DNA of 64,000 bases, from positions 1 to 64,000 of IMG/VR virus record IMGVR_UViG_3300011008_000016. One strand, 5' to 3'. Positions 6,001-28,825 of this stretch are shown in pieces. The notes beneath the pieces were generated by a model. That model was not told where the DNA came from. It searched no databases and saw nothing but the letters and a program-made list of their open reading frames with translations. A program made the position numbers and the translations under genes. Within the stretch, counting starts at the first letter, position 1, and each line of letters starts with the position of its first letter. The DNA is from a virus. Its lineage: Duplodnaviria > Caudoviricetes.

Positions 6001-8137
6001 CGGAATCATTAGTAAATTGACCCTTAACTGAATTAATTCTATCATTGATTGCATTTATCCGTGTAGTATCAGCATTTGTACCACCAGATAATGAACCACT
6101 GACCGGAACTACATATATACCAGTATTAAGTGTCTTGAGAATTTCACGAAGATAATGGTTCTGATTATGACCATATTTATCAATAACACCAGCACCAACT
6201 CCTCCAGTTACTCCACGAATTTTGGTTTTATCACCTTCATAGTAACTAAGATGAGAGTCTGTACCAATATTACCTCGTTTACCATTCCCCTTCGAATCGT
6301 GAGCCGATGCATGTGTTCCAAGTCCAGTATCGATATACTGAGTATTATATTTAATCCAATCCTGTTGTTCTTCTCTATTATGCTTATCAATGGCAGCTCT
6401 CTGCTCTTGTCTTGTGGAATTAAACCATCTGGTTAAATCAGAGTTTCTAACACCCCTCATTGAACCGAAAAATGCGGTAGCTAATTGTCTGAAAGTATCC
6501 TGTTCATTTTTACCGCCAGTAAGATACTGCATATCCTCGGATTTAAACGGATTTCTTCCACCGAATTCATCCAAGACAAGACGCTGAGTGAGTTTCTGCA
6601 TCTCATCAGCATATTTTTCAAGTTCTTCTTTTCCTATCGCTGCATTCTGAGATATGAACTCCTTGAAATCAGATTGCATATCAGAATACATTGAAGTTTC
6701 TCTTCGTAATTTATCCTTTTGATATCTTTCTTCTATCTCTCTAACTGTTTCCCATTTACCCGTATCATAATTGAATCCGATTTCCTCTGTTCCACTTATG
6801 GAGGCATTTATTTTCCGAAGTAGGGTGGGAATGACATTTGTAAGTGCCTGATGATCTGTACCAGACCAAGACATTGCTCCCTTATTATAGGCACTCTTAT
6901 CAACACTCTTCAAGGTAATTTTGTTATTTACACCGAATATCTTTCCGATTGCTGATAGTATAGGGTTATCTGAACGCTGTAACCCAGATAATTGACTGAG
7001 AAAACCTATTCCTGTTTCTTTGACCTGATTATCAAACTCTGTAAGAATCGATTTTACAGTCGCAGGAATCAACTGTTTTGTAACTGCTTTTGGTATGAAC
7101 GAAAGTGGATTCTGAGCCATCATTTTCAGAGTCTCTTTATTATCCGCCATGAATTTAAGCTGTGAAAGGAACATGTTGCTATCAACATACTGACCAAACT
7201 GTTTCTTTACTAAGCTCATGTAGCTATTTGCATCAACCGCACCACCAGATGAAAACATATCCATTACGTTATTATAATCTTTAAACGTTCTGGTATTCAC
7301 CTGAGTATTGGGAGCTTGCAGTTTAATTTGCTCAAGTATCTGCGTTTGAAGAGCAATACTATCTTCGTAGTATTTAGCAGATAAAGTAGAGAATCTTGAT
7401 AAAGTCTCTACACCAGTAGTCGATATGGTCGTAATATTATCGTTGATAGATGTTAAAGATGCATTGATTTCATTGCGAATATTACCAAGCATACCAAGGG
7501 TAGCTCTCGCATTCGCATTGTTATAATCCACAACAGTCTTACCAACATTGACCATTGTCTCTGTTTGATATGCAGTTGTTTGTACAAGTACACTATCAGG
7601 ACCAATATCAGTATTGACATTGATACTTGTTGTTTCATTGCCATGACCGGTTTTTCTACTAAATGTAGCAACCGCTGAACCATCAGAAGATTCTACTGAC
7701 GAATCAAACCCCATATCGTCTTCGCCGAAGTCGAAGTTTTCTTCTCCAAAATCTCCCATGTCCATCATGTCGTCATTCATATCATCGAAGAACTTGTCTG
7801 CTCGTTCTTTATTATAGAACTTACCAGATTTCAAATCTTCGAGTGAATTTTTGAAGACTTCACGACCAAGATTGAAATAATAATTTTTATCAATCGCCGT
7901 TCTTAACGCACGATCAGAAGCACGGGACTTTTTCATAGACTCTGCTATGTCTTTTCCCGTGGTAGCCGTTACTTTTGCCGCATCAATTGTTGACGGCAAA
8001 AGTTCTTGTAAAACGTCGAACGTTGAAAAGCCTATAGACTTTGCAACATTACCAAGCCATGAACCTGCTTTTTGCGGAACAGACTTTTTCTTAGAAGATG
8101 AACCTTTGACGTACTTACTAAGGCTATTCTTAGGCAT
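1..8137 (-). CDS. Giant tape-measure-like tail protein (>2700 aa), truncated by the window edge
   Basis: Absent from the ORF track, presumably because it has no stop in the window. ATG at 8137 after GAAAGGAGG (MPKNSLSKYVKG...); the same frame reads ...WNGAKNLGGNVV at base 2. Gly/Ala-rich repeats (PGGPIGGAILG-like) as in jumbo-phage tape measures. The frame was checked at both ends and at sampled internal points, not codon by codon. Confidence 0.75.
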   Translation of the reverse strand, partial: MPKNSLSKYVKGSSSKKKSVPQKAGSWLGNVAKSIGFSTFDVLQELLPSTIDAAKVTATTGKDIAESMKKSRASDRALRTAIDKNYYFNLGREVFKNSLEDLKSGKFYNKERADKFFDDMNDDMMDMGDFGEENFDFGEDDMGFDSSVESSDGSAVATFSRKTGHGNETTSINVNTDIGPDSVLVQTTAYQTETMVNVGKTVVDYNNANARATLGMLGNIRNEINASLTSINDNITTISTTGVETLSRFSTLSAKYYEDSIALQTQILEQIKLQAPNTQVNTRTFKDYNNVMDMFSSGGAVDANSYMSLVKKQFGQYVDSNMFLSQLKFMADNKETLKMMAQNPLSFIPKAVTKQLIPATVKSILTEFDNQVKETGIGFLSQLSGLQRSDNPILSAIGKIFGVNNKITLKSVDKSAYNKGAMSWSGTDHQALTNVIPTLLRKINASISGTEEIGFNYDTGKWETVREIEERYQKDKLRRETSMYSDMQSDFKEFISQNAAIGKEELEKYADEMQKLTQRLVLDEFGGRNPFKSEDMQYLTGGKNEQDTFRQLATAFFGSMRGVRNSDLTRWFNSTRQEQRAAIDKHNREEQQDWIKYNTQYIDTGLGTHASAHDSKGNGKRGNIGTDSHLSYYEGDKTKIRGVTGGVGAGVIDKYGHNQNHYLREILKTLNTGIYVVPVSGSLSGGTNADTTRINAINDRINSVKGQFTNDSDKVKRDTPKANVTTYTDEKKANDIAKGKLDLDEAGIAQMEARAKDYHRQKTDDVKNDAGFIGKLTNWLPKDSGARKLLENMQNAVNQGTGKVKDVVQTADNLLFDIVFGNTDGHKGVKALFDKTVNTMKAGFIKFSSFIDAKVLEPLNEALFGEEGLIKKIKETELWKKISETFKDITKKASTFFLGTNENGTYSGGLFSETANSLKDIGTHVKEGILGKRGSNGKIIEPDESVLGNMKRMFRTTTENIAKAVGLDASKPKESLGTRLATGMDAIYHRIQERGKEFSDTIFGQYSGSKEFVDQFKEDMKGQKGFIGASAVLGSIGTMVLGGHMGLLGSLFLPGGPIGGAILGAGIGIATKSTAIQNLLFGPEDPETGESTGGLITKEFQDFFKQNKMGIGIGAGVGLAAGFGLIPSFFVPGGPIGGALIGGAVSLATKSESFNKLLYGDGGDKDNPTGGIAKKLKELFGKDKDLKTLGIDAGIGAGVGVLGSFFLPGGPILGALLGSATSVGLASNKFKDWFFGKEEDGKRQGGVLGKFTGFIDKEIFEPLGKATRVAQIKILGFVDEHMATPFKKAMMPLITEAKYIGGVVKDKIKGVFDSIKEAFHTHVTGPIGDAIKEHFLDPLKKMLHGFFGGLGKIIGSVLSAPFKVIGAAARGAYNNQRKRGEQSYVDEVEGEYKTKVGNILHFDKDPNKGFIGNAIGALKQLPGKGRDYLAARKDRREKLEDQESRVNAQFGEKGAWYDKTKGHWFDEDEELAKRKAEREAKIAAIQNGEDTEGGKRSGIREFFRSLTTPRKKLEEEKRKREEAAKTKAEGAATEEPTTEVTEAVDEQTTEISRQTAVLDTINGLVESIANKLGANTSSNNNSSVNTKPVETDSDEDETETSTQTGSSKKKKKRTKLSRRQKKRQKRANQNQTRVNTKETQTSGPIIGDESDDSSLGILSRIHDMISRIAEARGGSSSTGEAGEEGDKKKSFVQKIYEDVSKITDSVYGQLNGVGSNVNKIYRMMLKLNNMSDDDIKGDNNKEYVGFFGKLRTMLNRPFKAIKDIITAPFRMVGNAVRGVVDGIKGAGKAIATGVTGIVKGFGKALKGIGDLVGDIVRLPLDIIHTGLSAVRSMLPALGEAVKAGASLITTGIKAGGILLVDGVKSVGNTLVEASKGFGALLGGAMQGLGGILSAAGVIGGDVLKGLWKGAKFVGKGALNAAGTVVSAPFKLLGNLGKPGGLFNKGPMHVIVDSGKLDLVKVVASVKKIPRTGGSESPVDNLLGGSGGFSSVRPLRPALAGGFGVGDEGPVHVIVESFAGSAIKDMMSHLADFGQTAGDKARSTFNKVKSAFMPGVDTNVGDTSVDASLAGGGSADDAIGSDASLADDDNRTSVATNLAGGGNNPSPFAEKIAARQAQVDKGSRATMLERFAALDKEKAETEFRAKLLGQIGQSTQVQTEHKDIFSSIFSKKGLITGALLLALPLIIKHLPKISNFISTIAQKLKLSGLLGGLLEDVIQGTEEVGGIAGIVNNVGEKVNQIYDVVEGKQTQHVINEDGTLAVDENGKPIYEQIDQNRIKTALTPTKTRINTKTGEFENRNDWTQMSGATAKLVGTHAVVPGLKIAGTGFNAVGKTIDTVTGIGRGIAGFAASGRALNGLKAAGYTELAKEAGIGQRIAGATMGVVDNAAATVTTGVKTAGIKIANSAFGQGVKEFGENTAILAKSYANDAIGAISNNEVIKTFIDKGLGAIEFLVGKLTAAGAKLGIKVKPGMFKDLIGNIKSTLLNPQKLAARAKDIGNFLKKIANVLKIGFVVYGAIEGAANPAALFEVDAKDTDIKMRVIASVFKGLLGTTAGSIIDFINTLASEIAGFNFIKVAATWTYGLFSSEEDKEALKAAQDDFTKGYHDYVEEEYNAYKENAEKAGQTAMSLDEFKASDLATSRSEYNSKKNPSLFKRGFDAVKGGVGAVKGLVAAPGKALEAAKNAGKTVVTGVSNTASNLWNGAKNLGGNVV

Positions 8138-11639: not shown

Positions 11640-14600
11640 TTAAAGAACCAATCGTTCTCCGTAATATATCATATCTTTTGCCACGTAAGCATTTAACTCC
11701 TCATCTAATTCTATATTGGGAATATATCCTTCAGAAGATTTTGAAAGCCTTTGTTCAAATACTGCACGATTGACTTCATTCATGAAGTTCATTCCTGCAA
11801 ATACAATATCTCCTTTTGAATATTCTTGAGTAGCCTCATACTTATTGTCCGGACTCATCATGATATCAAATGCAGATTCCATTAATGCCAGATGTTCTTC
11901 TGCGAGTTTAACATTATTCATATCGAATCTCTCATATCCTGTAGATTCTTTTGTTGGAGTAACTGGTTTCTTTGTATGGACATCCATATATGGACGTTCT
12001 TCTCGCATCTTCTCATTCCAATCCTGTCCAGTAAGAATCTCAAAGCACTTACGTTTCAATTCAATAAGTACTTTATATCCCACTTCAACTGTAAGAACGG
12101 AAGGTGTCCCACGCTGTAATATAGCAGATGGTGCCAACGGTATATCAATCTCCTCATACGGACGAAATGATGTATAAGGTTCAAACCCACGAGGGACCAT
12201 ATAGCCATTCGTAGCCTTATTTGCCGACATATGAGCAAATTTATCACCATCTGATACTTCATCATGATATGTTACATATATCTCAAGTAACACTCCGTCA
12301 TGTACATCAATGCCTGCAATTTTACCATACTGATCAGGTTTTACTCTACCAACAGCACGATCAAAGAACACTCCGCTTCTATAAACAGAGTTTTTATTTT
12401 TATCAAACTTATCCATATAGGCTCTTCTGTCTCTTTCGTGCTTTTGGATACTATTGACCATTTTCTTGAGCGATGGAGACAGCTCTTCAAGTTCAACCGC
12501 AGGATAAACTCGAATATCTGCAATAATACCATCATGTTTCGATGTATACTTAGAGCGACCCAAGTTGATAACTTCCTCTTGTAAATCCTTTCGGATAGAA
12601 TTCATAAGTTCGCTCATTTCCGCATCTGTATATGATGTATCAAACCGAATCAAATCATCTCCATTCTTTACACGATCTCCCACTTTGCAGATATAGTCAA
12701 CATTAGAATTTTTTCCTATCACAACGGAAACTTCTTTCATTGTGATATCTGCTGACATAGCTCTACTTAAACGGTAAGTTGACCACATTGAATCTTCGTA
12801 AGTTGCCATATTTGATAAACAAGCGGTCTTAACCAAAGTGCCATAGGTAAGCTTATTTCCCAACACACCAGTATCTTTAAAGTAGTGCTTGTCGAATGCC
12901 AGAATCGCATCTTTCTTAAATTTATCTCCTTTCTTAAACGTACTATCAAGTTTATTTCCAAGATAGAAACCACCGCCACCGTTCTGGACAATTTTACTAT
13001 CCAAATCAATAGCTTGCGTAGTCCCATCTGCATACTTGATAATCATTATATTAGCATCATCATTCCGGTCAATTACTTCACCATCCTGTTTTGCTACATA
13101 AGAAAAATCATTTGATGTACGGTATTGGATTGTCGAATCAAATCCATTTGTGATAAGACAAGGACATTGATCTTGTACAGGAATTGCGTGACAAGATTGT
13201 TTACTTGTCATTGCTGTACGGTTCGGATCATCGTGTGCAACTCCCATCGGATAAGTCATTTCCTCTGTAGTCATCAACTTCGTTGCATCCAAATTCTTGG
13301 CATTATCACGACCTACAACTTCAAGCATACCATAAGCATTGATAACATTTGGCTCTACAACCAAATGCCTTTCTTTACCGCAATTACCAGAAATATCAGT
13401 AGATACACCGATTAATCCAACCATATTGTCATGATAATTACGCTTTTCTTCACTATAACTTCGGTCTTTATTCATACCGACATAACCCTTCATAGAAGTT
13501 ACACCAAACTGCTTCACTTCTACAATAGGCGAAAGCCGACTATACGAATCTACCGTAGGAAGTCCATTAAGTTCTTTTATAACACAGTCAGGGTCAATAG
13601 ATAACTTCATGGGGTTAGCATTATTTGCCGTCTTACGATATCTGCTGTAAGCCTTTGTCATTTCCTTATAGAGTATAGCAGGAATTATCTCAACATTACG
13701 TAACCGATAAAGTGTCGGGTCTGTATCTATTGAGAATGAACTATCAGCAAGCATATTACTTGCAAAAATCATCAGAGATACAATATCTTCCGGATATCCA
13801 AGCAACTTCAAAATATCAAGTGTTTTGAAGTCAATCATGAAATCATAGAAGTTAATAAAACCGCCTGCATAATATCCACTTCCGAGAAGCTGTTCGAATA
13901 TATCAATATAGGTGTCCCTATTGTCCATCTCTGCAATGGTAAAATCTTTCAAAATCAACTCTGTAAAACCGTTGAATAAAAGACAAGCTTCAAGATCATT
14001 CATAGCATATTTCAGATAACCATCTGCAAACTGTATATACATATAGTTATCCGAATTATCTTTTTTATCAACAAACTCTACTCGATTTTCTCCTGTAAGA
14101 GTATTGAACTTCTGGACAACTGTTGTTAATCCTTCAAAGAAAGTAACAGCAAATACTAACGGAAAATCTTTCTCAAGCATCTTCACGTTATTATGGACGT
14201 ATTTACGTCCTGAAGATAATCTCTTGAATGTATCATAATATACTGGCATAGATTCCCGAACCATAAGAGAAACCATATCCTGATGTTCAGGGTTTGTTGT
14301 ATTGTATACAATAGGTTCCTTCTTGGTTCCTTTATAACCAATGATAATTTCTTCAAGAGTGGAATCTTTATACTTGTCCCCAAGTTCCTCTTTTAACATA
14401 TCCACTGAGAAGACAAATGTACAATTATTAATGACAATCTTATTGTACTTAGATGCCAGTTCATCATATTCCAGGCAAGTGAGATAAGATCTATTGATAA
14501 CAGAGTTATCTCCTTTATACACACGAACTTTTACATTGTCAGGTCTCTTAGATTCATCTACCAGAATCTTCTTAAACCGTTCCATGTTTGGATTGAAACG

Positions 14601-16391
14601 GGTTCCTTTTCTGGTCATCCAAATCTTATTATAATTTGAAACAATCTGAAGTTCATCAGGACCTGTCTTAATGATAGGAAGTCCTACAAGCTGTTTCTCA
14701 ATTACACGACGTTTACCGTTGATGATCAAAAACTTATCGTCAACCAATTTCGGTATATTGACCTTGATGGTATGACGCCTCCTATTTTCGTCTTCCATTT
14801 CAATCGTATAGGTATCCTGATAAACCAACTCTGTTGAAGTATCTTCTACCTTTACATCAAGTACATTGACATTGATTCCTTTATCATTGAAGGAAGTGAT
14901 TGCACGAGCCATATCCCTATCAAACATTTCTTCGATATAAGCGGACTCGAAATTATAAAACCGAACATTCGTAAGTTCGGAATTATCGGTAACAACAGCA
15001 TCATTACTAATCTGATGCTCTGGGATTTTCGGAGGTTCCGGCATTTCGGCAATTAAATCACCAATCTTCTTATCATGGATTTTAAGAGTCATCTGTTTCT
15101 CACGAAGCATTTTATCTCTCTTCAAAGAAGCAGCGGTCTTAGTACCAACTCTTTTATCCGTAACAGATTTAATGAAAGAAGTTTTTAACTCGTCATCGGT
15201 CTCAATCTCTTCTATTGTATCTTCAATTGCCTCATCTTCCGAAATCTTTGTATCTGTATCTCTTTCTTCTTCATCACGAAATTCTGTTTCAGGATGAGAA
15301 GATTCTTCCTTCAATCGTTTCTTTTCTTCTTTCTTAGCCTCTTCTTCATCAGCTTCGACATCTTTTGTAGCAGCTACTTTCTTCTCCAGTTTCTGGATTG
15401 CAATATCCGCAGCGATTGCAGGTGCATCTTTTACCGTATCATCAAAACCTTGAGGACCAGTAGCGTTCTTTGTAATAACTGCCTTAATTTGATTATCCAA
15501 ATCAGCCTTTACGATACCCTCATAATGGTCGATTATGTCAGATACCATATATTTATCACCTTTCTGATTAACGGCTTCGTATCCAGCAGGCTGAATCCTC
15601 TTGACAAATCTAACAAGGCTTGTGAAATTCTCTCTCTTGAAATCTCCTAATGTATTGACTTTGACATATCCCTTAGTGGTATAAAAAAGAATCTCCATCT
15701 CCGGAACAGACACCATTACCTTGAAGATAATATTGTCGGATTTCCTCAAAAGAATCATCATGTAATCATAGAATTGAAAATCACCAAGGGGTGCATCAAT
15801 ATGAAAATCATCCAAATCAATAAAGATTGGAGCTTTCTTATACTTATCAAATTTCAAGCCTTCATAAAAAGAACCAATCGTATTGAAGTACATCTTCAAC
15901 CGTTCAACAAGAGGAATCCTCTCCAATTTTGGTTGCCTCTTTAATAACGCAGTAAGAGGTTCCATATCATATACAAAGTTCTTTCCTGCTAATGTAGCGG
16001 TTGAGATTGGTGTAATGATATTGGGTGCATTCTGCTGCATATCGCCATAAGCGAGAATTCTTTGTTGCTTTAACCCCATTTTGCTGATACCGGGATTTTT
16101 AACACGAGGAGACTTTATAGCACGGAATAAACGTATATGATCATAGTAATATCCTTTATATGCAGTCCCCTGATTCATGAGTTTTGGATGCTTATTGGTG
16201 AGTACCCTTGCAATTGATGTAGGTTGGGTATTCAGAAATGGTATAAACATCCCTTTATTTGAACTACCATCTTTTGGTAGTTGTAACTTATCTTTTGCAA
16301 CTGTAAAGTTTGATACAGTATCCAACTGTCTCATTTCAAGGATAGCTGACTTCTCAGCCCCATCGGGACCATCAAACATAACAAGTTCCAT
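11640..16391 (-). CDS. rpoB: Phage multisubunit RNA polymerase beta subunit (probably virion RNAP)
   Basis: RpoB motifs: IINGKRRVI (cf. IINGTERVI), HDDPNRTAMTSKQSCHAIP (cf. HDDANRALMGSNMQRQAVP), TYEDS (cf. NFEDS), GDKFAHMSANK (cf. GDKMAGRHGNKG); long charged N-terminal extension. Confidence 0.9.
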   Translation of the reverse strand: MELVMFDGPDGAEKSAILEMRQLDTVSNFTVAKDKLQLPKDGSSNKGMFIPFLNTQPTSIARVLTNKHPKLMNQGTAYKGYYYDHIRLFRAIKSPRVKNPGISKMGLKQQRILAYGDMQQNAPNIITPISTATLAGKNFVYDMEPLTALLKRQPKLERIPLVERLKMYFNTIGSFYEGLKFDKYKKAPIFIDLDDFHIDAPLGDFQFYDYMMILLRKSDNIIFKVMVSVPEMEILFYTTKGYVKVNTLGDFKRENFTSLVRFVKRIQPAGYEAVNQKGDKYMVSDIIDHYEGIVKADLDNQIKAVITKNATGPQGFDDTVKDAPAIAADIAIQKLEKKVAATKDVEADEEEAKKEEKKRLKEESSHPETEFRDEEERDTDTKISEDEAIEDTIEEIETDDELKTSFIKSVTDKRVGTKTAASLKRDKMLREKQMTLKIHDKKIGDLIAEMPEPPKIPEHQISNDAVVTDNSELTNVRFYNFESAYIEEMFDRDMARAITSFNDKGINVNVLDVKVEDTSTELVYQDTYTIEMEDENRRRHTIKVNIPKLVDDKFLIINGKRRVIEKQLVGLPIIKTGPDELQIVSNYNKIWMTRKGTRFNPNMERFKKILVDESKRPDNVKVRVYKGDNSVINRSYLTCLEYDELASKYNKIVINNCTFVFSVDMLKEELGDKYKDSTLEEIIIGYKGTKKEPIVYNTTNPEHQDMVSLMVRESMPVYYDTFKRLSSGRKYVHNNVKMLEKDFPLVFAVTFFEGLTTVVQKFNTLTGENRVEFVDKKDNSDNYMYIQFADGYLKYAMNDLEACLLFNGFTELILKDFTIAEMDNRDTYIDIFEQLLGSGYYAGGFINFYDFMIDFKTLDILKLLGYPEDIVSLMIFASNMLADSSFSIDTDPTLYRLRNVEIIPAILYKEMTKAYSRYRKTANNANPMKLSIDPDCVIKELNGLPTVDSYSRLSPIVEVKQFGVTSMKGYVGMNKDRSYSEEKRNYHDNMVGLIGVSTDISGNCGKERHLVVEPNVINAYGMLEVVGRDNAKNLDATKLMTTEEMTYPMGVAHDDPNRTAMTSKQSCHAIPVQDQCPCLITNGFDSTIQYRTSNDFSYVAKQDGEVIDRNDDANIMIIKYADGTTQAIDLDSKIVQNGGGGFYLGNKLDSTFKKGDKFKKDAILAFDKHYFKDTGVLGNKLTYGTLVKTACLSNMATYEDSMWSTYRLSRAMSADITMKEVSVVIGKNSNVDYICKVGDRVKNGDDLIRFDTSYTDAEMSELMNSIRKDLQEEVINLGRSKYTSKHDGIIADIRVYPAVELEELSPSLKKMVNSIQKHERDRRAYMDKFDKNKNSVYRSGVFFDRAVGRVKPDQYGKIAGIDVHDGVLLEIYVTYHDEVSDGDKFAHMSANKATNGYMVPRGFEPYTSFRPYEEIDIPLAPSAILQRGTPSVLTVEVGYKVLIELKRKCFEILTGQDWNEKMREERPYMDVHTKKPVTPTKESTGYERFDMNNVKLAEEHLALMESAFDIMMSPDNKYEATQEYSKGDIVFAGMNFMNEVNRAVFEQRLSKSSEGYIPNIELDEELNAYVAKDMIYYGERLVL

Positions 16392-18975: not shown

Positions 18976-19189
18976 CCATTTAACCTCCTCTCCATTGTAT
19001 TCTTGTATCTTAATATATCAATAATCAGCTTTTCAGAAATTATATACGCAAAAAATGAGATAGTAGGTCCATCCATTTCCTACTATCTCAATGACTGATA
19101 CATGAAAAGTTAATAAAGAGGGGAGTAAATTTTTTGGTTATGAAAGTTTAGAACTTCCATTACTTGACTGTATATATTTTAACAAAAAT

Positions 19190-20120
19190 TAATGGAGACA
19201 TGTACATACTCTTAATGCAGAAAGTGGACATGTCACGCTGCTGTGGAGAAAGTAACGACTAACACTTGAAACTTTGATAGCAATATCAAGGTTGTTAGCA
19301 CGAGAGACCCGTGAAATCAAAATGGTGGCAAATGTGTACGAGTCTGTGAATATGCAGGACGTGGGGCCGCCAGTAGCAATATTGGTAACGAAGGCTGTAA
19401 GAGTCGCCACTTATGTTATACAATGCTCTCTCGACAATTGATACGTATGTTGTAGCAATCTACGTATTTTAGGTCAATGATTAGAAGAAAACATCCTAAG
19501 AGAGCGGGTGTTTAGTAGAAATAGCAACGCAATACACTGTGGCAGAACTACTATGGGTAACTGAAATAGAACTGAAACAAACTCCCATAGGAGGGACGGA
19601 GACCGTTGGAATCACCATGGAGTAGTGTAGCCCTATTCTATTAAATTACTGGATGCGGTCCTTTAAAGACAACTGCGTGAAAGCAAGAGAATATGACATT
19701 GTTAGTAGCGAACAGACAGTCTGGCTTGCAACTCCACTACTATGAATGCGAGAGTTGGGACCCTTGCCAATTTAATCGTGGGTGTCACAGGATGGCACAG
19801 ACGGTCGCTTAGGCTGCGACGAATAAATTTGCATCTCATATGCCTGGATTCGGCTGGTAGAAATAGAATCTCATTATGCTTATAGAATAAAAGAACCTAT
19901 AATGCTAAACTTCGTTATAGGATGCTACAAGTCTGGGGCACCGGACTTCTTAATGTAGGATGGTTGCAAACATCTTACCATATTTGCGGTATAATGGAAA
20001 ATAAGAGCTGTGTTAGGAGCACCATAGTCAATCCCTCTCATGAATATCTTATTATCGCGTATAGTTAATGTGAATTCACAGTAATGAACGGTTCTTCTCG
20101 TGGTGCCGTTCATTATCTCT
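19190..20120 (+). ncRNA. Candidate large structured non-coding RNA (~930 nt)
   Basis: No credible ORF; more GC-rich than its flanks; many nested stems with G-U pairs and GNRA loops on the + strand; closing hairpin 20081-20116. Confidence 0.65.
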
Positions 20121-20342
20121 TAAATCTAAATTGAGTCAAGCATTTTAGTCCACTCCGTAAAAGGTTAGTGGAGTACTCATTCAAGGAGCACTGAAAATCT
20201 TTTCCGTGCCCAGTTGTAGGCATTTAATCTATACAACATGGGGTAGTTAGGTTATACTCCAAATTACTTTTTAGGAAGTGGTCAACAAAATATAACTCAA
20301 ATTCAAATTTTGGAGCTTTAAAAATGAAAGAAACACGATATA

Positions 20343-20880
20343 GACGGATATCTGACAATTTATCAATCAGATATCCGTCAAAAAATTTCAAAATTTTCTT
20401 AAAAGAGAAAAAGAAAGAACCAAAGAAAAAGAGAAAAAATCAACCCCCTAAAAAATGGGCCGGGGTCCCACTACCCCCGGCCCATTTTTAATGGGGTGTT
20501 GTATGATTTATTTTTTCTCATATTTTTCGGGGATTTTTTCATTCTGAAAAAAGAAAATTTTTACATGAAAATTAGAATTTTAAAAAAGAAAAATTTTAGA
20601 AATGAAATTAAGTCATTGTTAGAAAATTTTTTAAAATCCGAAATTTTGAAAAGAGAAAAAGAAAGAACCAAAGAAAAAGAGAAATGTAAACCATTATAAT
20701 TTCTTGATTTCCGGTCATAACCCCACGAATGAAATCGCACTTTGTGCGATTTCATGAATTGTTGCTGCTTACGCAGCTATTGTTTCGTAATACGGTACAT
20801 CGTAAACCCTTATTTAGAAAATCCGAAATTTGAATTATATATTAAAAATTCGAATTTAAGAAACGAAATTTTAAGTAAGG
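20343..20880. other. Origin-like region: palindromes, 36-bp direct repeat, A-tracts
   Basis: 13-bp IR 20343-20379, 15-bp GC-rich IR 20451-20489, 12-bp IR 20729-20755, and extreme A/T tracts. Confidence 0.45.
20401..20684 (+). repeat. Perfect 36-bp direct repeat, two copies (20401-20436 and 20649-20684)
   Basis: AAAAGAGAAAAAGAAAGAACCAAAGAAAAAGAGAAA. Confidence 0.9.
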
Positions 20881-20892
20881 AGGATTTTCGAA

Positions 20893-21354
20893 ATGACCGA
20901 AATGATTTATTTAGCTTTCCGAGAATCGAACCTTCTTGGATATGCTTTCGAAATTGATATATTCTTTGAATTTTTGAAAGGATTTCTTTCTCAGAACCCA
21001 GCTATGAAAGTAGAAATTCAACGACTTCCCCTCGAAAAATGTGAATTAGATTATCAAGCCCTGTATCCAATGGATGAAATTATAGAATTCACAAAAAATG
21101 TATTTTTGACTTATAAACAATCGAAATTTTGGGAAGAGTACTTTGATGAATGTCGAATGGATGTTTGGGGTAAAATTACAAAGAGTGGAGAAGGAACCAG
21201 GCACTTAAATACAGACCTTTGTGATGTGAAGACTTTCTTAAACTATCTTGGTTCTGATATGGTTCGAAGTATTGTCTATAGTGAATCTATAGATACAATC
21301 AACGAAAAGTATGCGATGTATATGGACTACGCACAAAAAATCGAGGACAAATAA
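20893..21354 (+). CDS. Hypothetical protein (153 aa)
   Basis: AAGGAGG RBS and TATATTAA upstream. Confidence 0.8.
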   Translation: MTEMIYLAFRESNLLGYAFEIDIFFEFLKGFLSQNPAMKVEIQRLPLEKCELDYQALYPMDEIIEFTKNVFLTYKQSKFWEEYFDECRMDVWGKITKSGEGTRHLNTDLCDVKTFLNYLGSDMVRSIVYSESIDTINEKYAMYMDYAQKIEDK

Positions 21355-27777: not shown

Positions 27778-28317
27778 TCAGCCGATATCATCTGCATCTT
27801 TGTACATTCTGGAGCCGGTTGCTCCTTTTTGTCCTTGATATTTCCCATTATACGGATTTTCTGCAACTGAATCCATCTCTGCGAAAACAAGCTGACCAAG
27901 TCTCTTATTCGATACAAGACGAATAGCTCTATTACTCGCATTGAAAAGCTCCAATGTTATGTTTCCTTCGAATCCTGGATCAACCCAACCAGCATTTTGA
28001 ATGAATAAACCGAGTCTTCCATAAGAGCTTCTCCCTTCAACAAATGCTGTTATGTTGGCTGGCAACTTGAAATACTCTATAGTTGATCCCAGTATGAACT
28101 GTCCCGGAAGTAGAATATATTCATCTGTTTTGATTGTTTTATAATTACATGGTCTACTTAAATCAATAACTTGACTAGCATAGTCATCAATCGTTGCAAA
28201 TGTATTATCCAATCGAATATCCACACTTGCTGGTTGAATCTGCTCTTCTTTTAATGGTGTAATGACAAGTTCACCAATTCCAAGAAGTCGTCTGATTGTT
28301 CTATCACTCAATATCAT
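27778..28317 (-). CDS. dcd: dCTP deaminase
   Basis: MILSD...[11 protein letters not shown]...[12 protein letters not shown]...[16 protein letters not shown]...KYQGQ; start moved to 28317 on the RBS AAAGGAG. Confidence 0.92.
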
Positions 28318-28825
28318 TAGTGGTTTCTCCTTTCTGATTTTCGATTTCCGTTTTTTCAAGATAGAGTTTTCGTCGAGTAAGACATTGTTTTACTATGGAT
28401 ATTTGTGAATCGTTATATCTATCGTCTATATCAAGATATCCATCTTCGATCGACTCCAACATCAAGACTATATCCTCAAGTTCTTCATATACTGGGATTT
28501 TGTACGTCTCGTCATAAGTTTCTGAAATATTTTCGAGTATTCTTAAATCTTGAATCTTTTTAAGAGCTGCGTCAAGAACTTCTTGGGTGGATTTTCCACT
28601 CGGAAATCCACCATCTTTGAATATCTCCTGTAGTAGTACGTTGTAATCCATAACAAGTTTTGATTGACCTGCCATAATTACACTACGTTGTTGATCGTTG
28701 AGTACTTCGTTGTCCTTTATTCTCTTTTTAGCCCATTTTACAATGCTCTTTTTGTTATGGTTGAGAATAGCTATAGTGACTCGTATTCCAACAATAACTC
28801 CAAGAGCAATCAATCCCTTATTCAT
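28304..28825 (-). CDS. Hypothetical protein with an N-terminal hydrophobic helix
   Basis: [18 protein letters not shown] segment; GGAGG RBS. Confidence 0.7.

What the first reader, a model, noticed from the sequence alone, without database searches (positions are those of the whole stretch)
19190..20120. Candidate novel ~930-nt ornate ncRNA in a jumbo phage
Seen: the largest ORF-free block in a gene-dense genome, more GC-rich than its flanks and covered almost end to end by stems. Examples: GACATGT/ACATGTC at the 5' end; AACTTTGATA-GCAA-TATCAAGGTT (19270-19293); GTGGC/GCCAC (19325/19410) enclosing GCCAGTA-GCAA-TATTGGT; GCTCTCT/AGAGAGC (19425/19505) enclosing ATACGTA/TACGTAT; CTATGGG/CCCATAG (19551/19590); TGGAGT..TGTAGCC/GGCTTGCA.ACTCCA (19618/19736); GTGTCA/TGGCAC; GTCGC/GCGAC; CCTATAATG/CGTTATAGG (19896-19921); AAGTCTGG/CCGGACTT (19929-19948); a possible long-range pair TATTCTAT/ATAGAATA (19634/19889); and a closing 11-bp hairpin (20081-20116). 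G-U pairs and GNRA loops work on the + strand, which points to an RNA rather than a DNA cruciform. A near-match late promoter (AACA-N5-TA, 19181-19191) sits at the 5' end. Known: phages of Firmicutes carry large ornate RNAs such as GOLLD and ROOL. Inference: this is a divergent member of those families or a new class; it is my best candidate for an undescribed system here.
Basis: partly seen in the sequence, partly recalled or inferred. Interest (0 to 1): 0.88.

Follow-up and report, generated by a model that had tools for sequence, protein, structure and literature searches.

The report
New giant folded jumbo-phage RNA
A group of uncultured gut jumbo phages keeps a gene for an intricately folded RNA of about 900 nucleotides that makes no protein and matches no catalogued RNA family; it is probably made late in infection and may assemble into an RNA-only particle, but its job is unknown.

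Summary
Confirmed, with corrected details. Window 19214 to about 20117 (+) is a single-copy gene for a ~905-nt non-coding RNA in a 244-kb AR9-like phage. Twelve further distinct homologues (45-87% pairwise identity) sit at the same place in one clade of phages, and the RNA tree follows the RNA-polymerase tree. Single-sequence folding is only modest (z -2.1), but covariation is strong: 91% of cells pair over 148 base pairs, 89 pairs show two-sided changes, and the best helices exceed all 40 tree-simulated nulls. It has about 25 helices, 5-6 long-range pseudoknots or kissing pairs, and an invariant pair of UGAAA T-loop-like motifs. It is not GOLLD, ROOL or RNase P (positive controls worked) and hits no Rfam family. 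Best reading: a late, RNA-only architectural RNA that works like GOLLD/ROOL (inferred, 0.45); tRNA-elbow binding is the main rival. No expression data could be obtained. The scan had not noted this family on other DNA.

The parts
19203..19214 (+). Late-type phage promoter TACA-N6-TA; predicted start at A19214
   Evidence: Motif and spacing kept in all 13 homologues; ACA-N6-TA occurs 50 times upstream of genes in this genome against 12-30 for other spacings and 19 antisense; AR9 late consensus is AACA-(6N)-TA/G with the last base as start site (PMC5312081)
19161..19172 (-). Back-to-back second late-type promoter facing the leftward operon (not part of the RNA)
   Evidence: Same motif on the opposite strand in most homologues
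19214..20117 (+). The ~905-nt non-coding RNA gene (3' end approximate)
   Evidence: 13 homologues of about 860-950 nt; no shared ORF, 294 of 330 indels not multiples of three; covariation
19216..19356 (+). 5' domain: closing helix P1 (19216-37 with 19333-56) with a loop-E-like GAA/AGUA-type internal loop; encloses a length-variable region
   Evidence: helices 1-3; the motif name is inference from sequence
19299..19305 (+). PK1 5' strand; pairs with 20096-20102 in the loop of the last hairpin, about 800 nt away
   Evidence: 6-11 bp in 11 of 13 homologues, with one two-sided change in this sequence
19355..19413 (+). Most conserved core: helix 19361-67/19403-10 enclosing hairpin 19369-86 and invariant single-stranded words
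   Evidence: helices 5, 6; two-sided change in L044 and L050; the model finds held-out L050 at 47 bits
19424..19506 (+). P6/P7 domain; loop 19450-57 pairs with 19923-30 (PK2); 19492-96 pairs with 19651-55 (PK3)
   Evidence: P6: 6 of 8 pairs with two-sided changes; PK2 cognate score 17.2 against 14.3 cross-species and 10.6 shuffled; PK3 13 of 13 paired
19507..19650 (+). Multi-branch domain P8-P12 carrying the double T-loop hairpin
   Evidence: helices 10-13
19548..19593 (+). Hairpin whose loop holds two invariant UGAAA pentamers (19562-66, 19573-77), 6-7 nt apart: candidate interdigitated T-loops
   Evidence: Invariant in 13 of 13 while the stem covaries; T-loop role inferred (motif described in PMC4810234)
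19657..19768 (+). PK4 (19657-61/19758-62), hairpins P14-P16; loop 19739-44 pairs with 20023-28 (PK5)
   Evidence: PK4: 3 of 5 pairs with two-sided changes; PK5 core is invariant on both sides, so it is complementary in all 13 but has no covariation
19777..19871 (+). P17-P19; P18 loop 19808-13 is self-complementary in 11 of 13 and can alternatively pair with 19842-47 (PK6)
   Evidence: the weakest of the long-range pairs
19872..19996 (+). P20-P24 domain with a GNRA hairpin and the conserved loop GUUGCAAA (19963-70)
   Evidence: P20: 8 of 9 pairs with two-sided changes
20000..20053 (+). P25 hairpin; loop holds the PK5 3' strand
   Evidence: helix 27
20082..20115 (+). Last hairpin; loop holds the PK1 3' strand; followed by pyrimidine/U-rich bases
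   Evidence: 9 of 10 pairs with two-sided changes; end of conservation

Best explanation
Shown: a stand-alone, single-copy, vertically inherited gene whose product is selected as a folded RNA of ~905 nt, not as protein or DNA. Inferred: the phage's own non-virion RNA polymerase transcribes it late from 19214; it folds into about six domains that are tied together by 5-6 long-range loop-loop pairs and by T-loop, GNRA and loop-E contacts. Most likely mechanism: an RNA-only architectural molecule that works like GOLLD and ROOL, in which some of the kissing pairs and the self-complementary loop form between molecules and build an oligomeric shell or scaffold that holds or shields other macromolecules late in infection. 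Confidence that it is a real structured RNA is about 0.97; the number below is for the scaffold/oligomer mechanism.
For: Covariation far above nulls; non-coding; strand; invariant late promoter; conserved at 48-70% nucleotide identity while flanking proteins are 21-40% identical; RNA and RNA-polymerase distances correlate, rho 0.92; long-range pairs; no antisense match over 14 nt in its own genome. In ROOL a kissing loop first read as tertiary from covariation proved to be an intermolecular bridge of the cage (PMC12286853).
Against: Covariation cannot tell intra- from intermolecular pairs. No sequence or topological homology to GOLLD or ROOL, so cage formation is only an analogy; OLE forms only a dimer. 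No tRNA island nearby. Many invariant unpaired bases in the 19355-19413 core would also fit a ligand site or an active site. PK5 has no covariation and PK6 is weak.
Confidence: 0.45

Rival explanations
1. A tRNA-binding RNA: the two invariant UGAAA pentamers interdigitate into the platform that 23S rRNA L1 stalk, RNase P and T-boxes use to grip the tRNA elbow, so the RNA captures, protects, senses or processes host tRNA, or mimics an L1 stalk, for a phage that encodes no tRNAs.
For: Both pentamers invariant in 13 of 13, with fixed 6-7 nt spacing on a covarying stem; the motif's role in three RNA classes (PMC4810234); no tRNA genes in the genome.
Against: T-loops also serve purely intramolecular contacts (raiA, supplement of PMC12286853). 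In the three known cases the two T-loops are separated by helices (own knowledge), here they share one loop. No anticodon- or CCA-pairing element was identified.
Confidence: 0.2
2. A morphogenesis RNA (packaging-motor or virion component, like phi29 pRNA in role) that acts with late proteins.
For: Late-type promoter; self-complementary and kissing loops; virion-protein genes nearby; a conserved DNA palindrome 155-345 nt downstream in 8 homologues.
Against: Sister phages with 46-53% identical RNA polymerase and similar gene order lack it, which is hard to square with an essential assembly role; it is far larger than pRNA (own knowledge).
Confidence: 0.1
3. A ribozyme or a domesticated intron or RNase P derivative whose active site is the 19355-19413 core.
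For: Dense invariant unpaired bases; a pseudoknot-like core with words loosely recalling RNase P conserved regions; several pseudoknots.
Against: No Rfam hit at E up to 10; profiles from 13 real RNase P RNAs score it at the level of shuffled sequence (best chain 4-20 against null 95th percentile 13-22; true RNase P 60-71); own promoter and no interrupted gene.
Confidence: 0.1
4. A replication-origin RNA (primer or activator, as proposed for origin-linked large RNAs) acting on the AT-rich palindromic region just downstream.
For: It points at a conserved 15-18 bp palindrome and AT-rich repeats at 20343-20900.
Against: The distance varies from 155 to 345 nt; the palindrome is kept in L048, which lacks the RNA, and is absent or degenerate in L006, L040, L042 and L045, which have it; late promoter; the 3' end is closed by a hairpin tied to the 5' domain.
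Confidence: 0.07
5. Not an RNA: conserved DNA signals or chance stems.
For: Single-sequence folding is only z -2.1 and the same on both strands; no transcript seen.
Against: G-U to A-C asymmetry of 210 to 26, two-sided changes in 89 pairs, long-range non-nested pairs, GNRA strand bias, invariant promoter.
Confidence: 0.02

Closest known systems
GOLLD RNA (Rfam RF02032; 14-mer nanocage, PMC12286853)
   Same: Phage-encoded, very large (many over 800 nt), many helices and long-range pairs, variable region plus conserved core, unknown function; GOLLD rises during lysis.
   Different: No match to the model at E up to 10 in this genome while a control scores 165 bits; invariant words of this RNA absent from the held part of the GOLLD alignment; different helix order; no tRNA island; restricted to one AR9-like clade and driven by a phage late promoter.
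ROOL RNA (Rfam RF03087; octameric nanocage, PMC12286853)
   Same: Gut/rumen phage context, several pseudoknots and kissing loops, no evident protein partner.
   Different: About 905 against 570-660 nt; no model match while the control scores 130 bits; no profile similarity; ROOL is closed by a long 5'-3' helix, this RNA by a loop-loop pair between the 5' domain and the last hairpin.
RNase P RNA, T-box stem I and 23S L1 stalk (interdigitated T-loop RNAs, PMC4810234)
   Same: Two conserved T-loop-like pentamers close together.
   Different: Both lie in one hairpin loop; RNase P conserved regions not found above chance; not a leader of an amino-acid gene.
omega-RNA/HEARO of IscB
   Same: An IscB-like RRXRR gene lies 1.2-1.5 kb downstream on the same strand in three homologous loci.
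   Different: Absent from this genome and from the other loci that extend far enough; separated from the RNA by AT-rich DNA; no HEARO hit.

Membership tests
GOLLD (RF02032) | Match to the covariance model of the conserved 3' region | tested here: not met
   No match at E up to 10; positive control Ccr34 165 bits
GOLLD (RF02032) | Often in or near tRNA islands | tested here: not met
   No tRNA in 244 kb or in 12 homologous loci
GOLLD (RF02032) | Self-assembly into an RNA-only nanocage | not testable with these tools
   Needs cryo-EM or mass photometry
ROOL (RF03087) | Match to the covariance model and P1-P19 topology | tested here: not met
   positive control pMP118 130 bits
Large ornate phage ncRNAs (loose class) | Over 500 nt, non-coding, stand-alone | tested here: met
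   About 860-950 nt in 13 homologues, own promoter, frame-breaking indels
Large ornate phage ncRNAs (loose class) | Extensive covariation-supported helices with several pseudoknots | tested here: met
Large ornate phage ncRNAs (loose class) | Abundant discrete transcript | not testable with these tools
RNase P RNA (RF00010) | Conserved regions I, IV and V in order around the P2/P4 pseudoknot | tested here: not met
   Profile and three-block scans at null level; no match in relative G001 while 13 bacterial controls ring
tmRNA | tRNA-like domain and conserved tag frame | tested here: not met
   ARAGORN and Rfam negative; no frame kept across homologues
Group I / group II introns | Catalytic core (P3-P7, or domain 5) and an interrupted host gene | tested here: not met
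   No Rfam hit at E up to 10; lies between divergent genes behind its own promoter; the derived pseudoknot order does not fit (inspection)
Interdigitated T-loop (tRNA-elbow) RNAs | Two conserved pentanucleotide T-loops that intermesh | tested here: inconclusive
   Two invariant UGAAA; intermeshing and tRNA binding need a structure
OMEGA (IscB omega-RNA) | RNA directly upstream of an iscB gene and always linked to it | tested here: not met
   No iscB in this genome; where present it is 1.2-1.5 kb away

The most novel reading that the evidence does not exclude
A new class of ~900-nt phage RNA, as large as or larger than GOLLD, that both self-assembles and presents interdigitated T-loops to grip host tRNA (or acts catalytically on it): a fourth independent RNA solution to tRNA-elbow recognition and a function for an ornate phage RNA.
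Probability: 0.15. Interest if true: 0.92.

Novelty: new variant of a known kind. Interest (0 to 1): 0.72.

Why it matters
Only a handful of bacterial and phage non-coding RNA classes exceed 500 nt; those with known functions are ribozymes or core machinery, and GOLLD and ROOL were recently shown to form RNA-only cages of unknown purpose (PMC12286853). This adds an unrelated ~905-nt class with a well-supported secondary structure, defined ends, a predicted expression time (late, phage polymerase) and specific testable motifs. It offers a direct test of the open question that paper raises, whether cage formation is common among large natural RNAs, and a ready cryo-EM target. Limits: a narrow clade of uncultured phages, no expression data, function inferred by analogy.

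Tried and rejected
Rfam at gathering threshold and at E up to 10 on the window and homologues: nothing. ARAGORN: nothing. blastn against cultured phages and plasmids: only chance fragments or nothing. DNA patterns: only 4 true records in IMG/VR, 0 in the metagenome collection, 0 true in GTDB genomes; 16 loose-pattern hits scored at most 23 bits with the core model. Core model on 18 more distant jumbo-phage records: no match; profile and model searches of sister loci L047, L048, L058, L059, L062: none. RNase P resemblance of the core: tested with real RNase P sequences, not above shuffled controls. A tmRNA tag after GCAAAC: frame not conserved. Group I P7-like words: they are the two halves of PK5 in hairpin loops, wrong topology. 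IscB link: incidental. Antisense action on phage genes: no match over 14 nt. Literature searches found no description; the library lacks most subscription journals. R-scape and structure-aware alignment were not available; the alignment is slightly out of register in PK1, PK2, P7, P10, P16, P22 and P24, so these were left out or cut short and the long-range pairs were checked per sequence. One regex picked the wrong loop for four sequences; I read those loops from the alignment.

Full report
Setting. The window is the first 64 kb of a 244,309-base virus record. The large gene at 11640-16391 is a phage RNA polymerase beta subunit whose best cultured relatives are Staphylococcus and Bacillus AR9-like jumbo phages at 30-33% identity. 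Ribosome-binding sites are of the strong AGGAGG type, which points to a Firmicute host (inference). The genome has no tRNA genes. The finding lies in the largest ORF-free gap, 18976-20892, between two divergent gene blocks.

Observation. Folding of the single sequence is weak evidence: z is -2.1 on either strand, and the strongest local scores lie downstream, in strand-symmetric inverted repeats at 20260-20800. The case rests on homologues.

Homologues. Through the neighbouring polymerase gene I collected loci from IMG/VR, ENA and Logan. Thirteen distinct full-length copies, this one included, lie at the same place and in the same orientation, at 45-87% pairwise identity. They are 48-70% identical to this sequence at the nucleotide level while the three flanking leftward proteins are only 21-40% identical. 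All carriers form one clade in the polymerase tree (65-79% identity to this phage); the next phages out (46-53%) lack the RNA at this place, and 18 more distant records have no match to the core model. RNA and polymerase distances correlate (rho 0.92), so it is inherited vertically, as a single copy. It was not found in GTDB genomes, plasmids or cultured phages.

It is selected as RNA. No reading frame is shared and 294 of 330 indels break frame. On a 148-pair model, 91% of cells form standard pairs and 89 pairs have two-sided changes, against 79.5% and 48.6 in shuffles and 38-43% when partners are slid. That model was derived from the same alignment, so I also ran a search-wide null: five helices of at least 6 bp with at least three two-sided columns are seen, against none in each of 40 alignments simulated along the tree; for at least 5 bp, seven against at most one. 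G-U cells outnumber A-C cells 210 to 26 and GNRA-capped hairpins favour the + strand 38 to 15, which fixes the strand and excludes a DNA cruciform.

Ends. All 13 copies carry (T/A)ACA-N6-TA directly before helix P1. The same motif and spacing is enriched upstream of genes in this genome and matches the AR9 late promoter AACA-(6N)-TA/G, whose last base is the start site (PMC5312081). A twin promoter on the - strand (19161-72) faces the leftward genes. Conservation ends after the hairpin 20082-20115.

Anatomy. A 5' domain (19216-19356) with a loop-E-like internal loop and a variable interior; a highly conserved core (19355-19413); a P6/P7 domain; a multi-branch domain whose central hairpin carries two invariant UGAAA pentamers 6-7 nt apart; P14-P19; a P20-P24 domain with a conserved GUUGCAAA loop; and two 3' hairpins. 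Non-nested pairs tie these together: PK1 19299-305/20096-102 (11 of 13, one two-sided change), PK2 19450-57/19923-30 (all 13, cognate partners pair better than cross-species ones), PK3 19492-96/19651-55 and PK4 19657-61/19758-62 (both with two-sided changes), PK5 19739-44/20023-28 (invariant on both sides, so no covariation) and a weaker PK6 19809-14/19842-47, whose loop is also self-complementary in 11 of 13.

How it most likely works. Shown: a stand-alone structured RNA gene. Inferred: late transcription by the phage polymerase and a compact tertiary fold. For function I favour an RNA-only scaffold or cage like GOLLD and ROOL (0.45): it has their size, lack of an associated protein gene and wealth of loop-loop pairs, and in ROOL such a covariation-predicted pair proved to be an intermolecular bridge (PMC12286853). 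This is analogy, not homology. The main rival is tRNA binding through interdigitated T-loops, the device that the L1 stalk, RNase P and T-boxes share (PMC4810234; 0.2), though T-loops also serve internal contacts; the two readings are not exclusive. Packaging (0.1), ribozyme (0.1) and origin-primer (0.07) roles are less likely. The origin idea is weakened because the downstream palindrome and the RNA occur without each other and at varying distance. A resemblance of the core to RNase P that I noticed by eye failed a test against 13 real RNase P RNAs.

Comparison with what is known. No Rfam 15 family matches at E up to 10. GOLLD and ROOL models give nothing here but 165 and 130 bits on controls, my profile does not match those controls, and there is no tRNA island. 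It is not a member of either family, nor of tmRNA, RNase P, group I/II introns or omega-RNAs. It belongs only to the loose kind 'large ornate phage ncRNA'. Literature searches found no description, within the limits of an open-access library. The scan's own index holds no look-alike on other DNA, although it lists several other undescribed large RNAs in other jumbo phages, which I did not compare by structure.

Verdict. A real and apparently undescribed class of ~905-nt ornate RNA, well supported as a structure, unproven as a transcript, function open. Novelty: new variant of a known kind. Interest 0.72.

Noticed in passing
window 20343-20520 and 20636-20690: A 15-18 bp perfect palindrome with a GGGNCCCC..ACCCC core, preceded by an AAAGWACCAAAG box, is conserved downstream of the RNA in 8 homologues and also in L048, which lacks the RNA; strand-symmetric, so probably a DNA site (origin or packaging signal).
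   Followed up: partly
L040:3752-5086 (-), L042:3880-5211 (-), L045:2684-4006 (-): An IscB-like RRXRR gene of about 440 aa sits 1.2-1.5 kb downstream of the RNA in one subclade; only the RRXRR domain scores in Pfam and nuclease motifs look degenerate by eye, so it may be a domesticated or decayed OMEGA element. Absent from this genome.
   Followed up: partly
L059:2400-3020 (+) and L062 about 6100-6700 (+): Two sister-clade phages share another conserved, largely ORF-free element (68% over 231 nt, further short blocks upstream) with no Rfam hit and no match to my models: a candidate second large structured RNA family.
   Followed up: partly
L047:8350-8650 (-), L048:8100-8600, L058:6480-7280: Sister phages that lack this RNA have other ORF-free, hairpin-rich stretches near the same gene block; L047 and L048 share about 70 nt at 74%.
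   Followed up: no
L037:6393-6887 and L053:4058-4546: In one subclade a ~163-aa gene directly abuts the RNA's promoter on the opposite strand; no Pfam hit for the L037 copy.
   Followed up: no
G000:C1:72131-73090: Second-largest ORF-free gap of the genome (960 nt), unrelated in sequence to this RNA.
   Followed up: no
genome-wide, G000: TATATTAA is enriched upstream of genes (24 against 8 antisense), probably the early promoter of the virion polymerase.
   Followed up: partly
window 27778-28359: A 193-aa ORF that looks like dCTP deaminase by eye; AR9-like phages have uracil-containing DNA, but this was not tested here.
   Followed up: no
L057:1968-2286 (+): The Caulobacter phage Ccr34 control locus also holds a permuted tmRNA (71 bits) that the record does not annotate, and a tRNA inside its GOLLD.
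   Followed up: no
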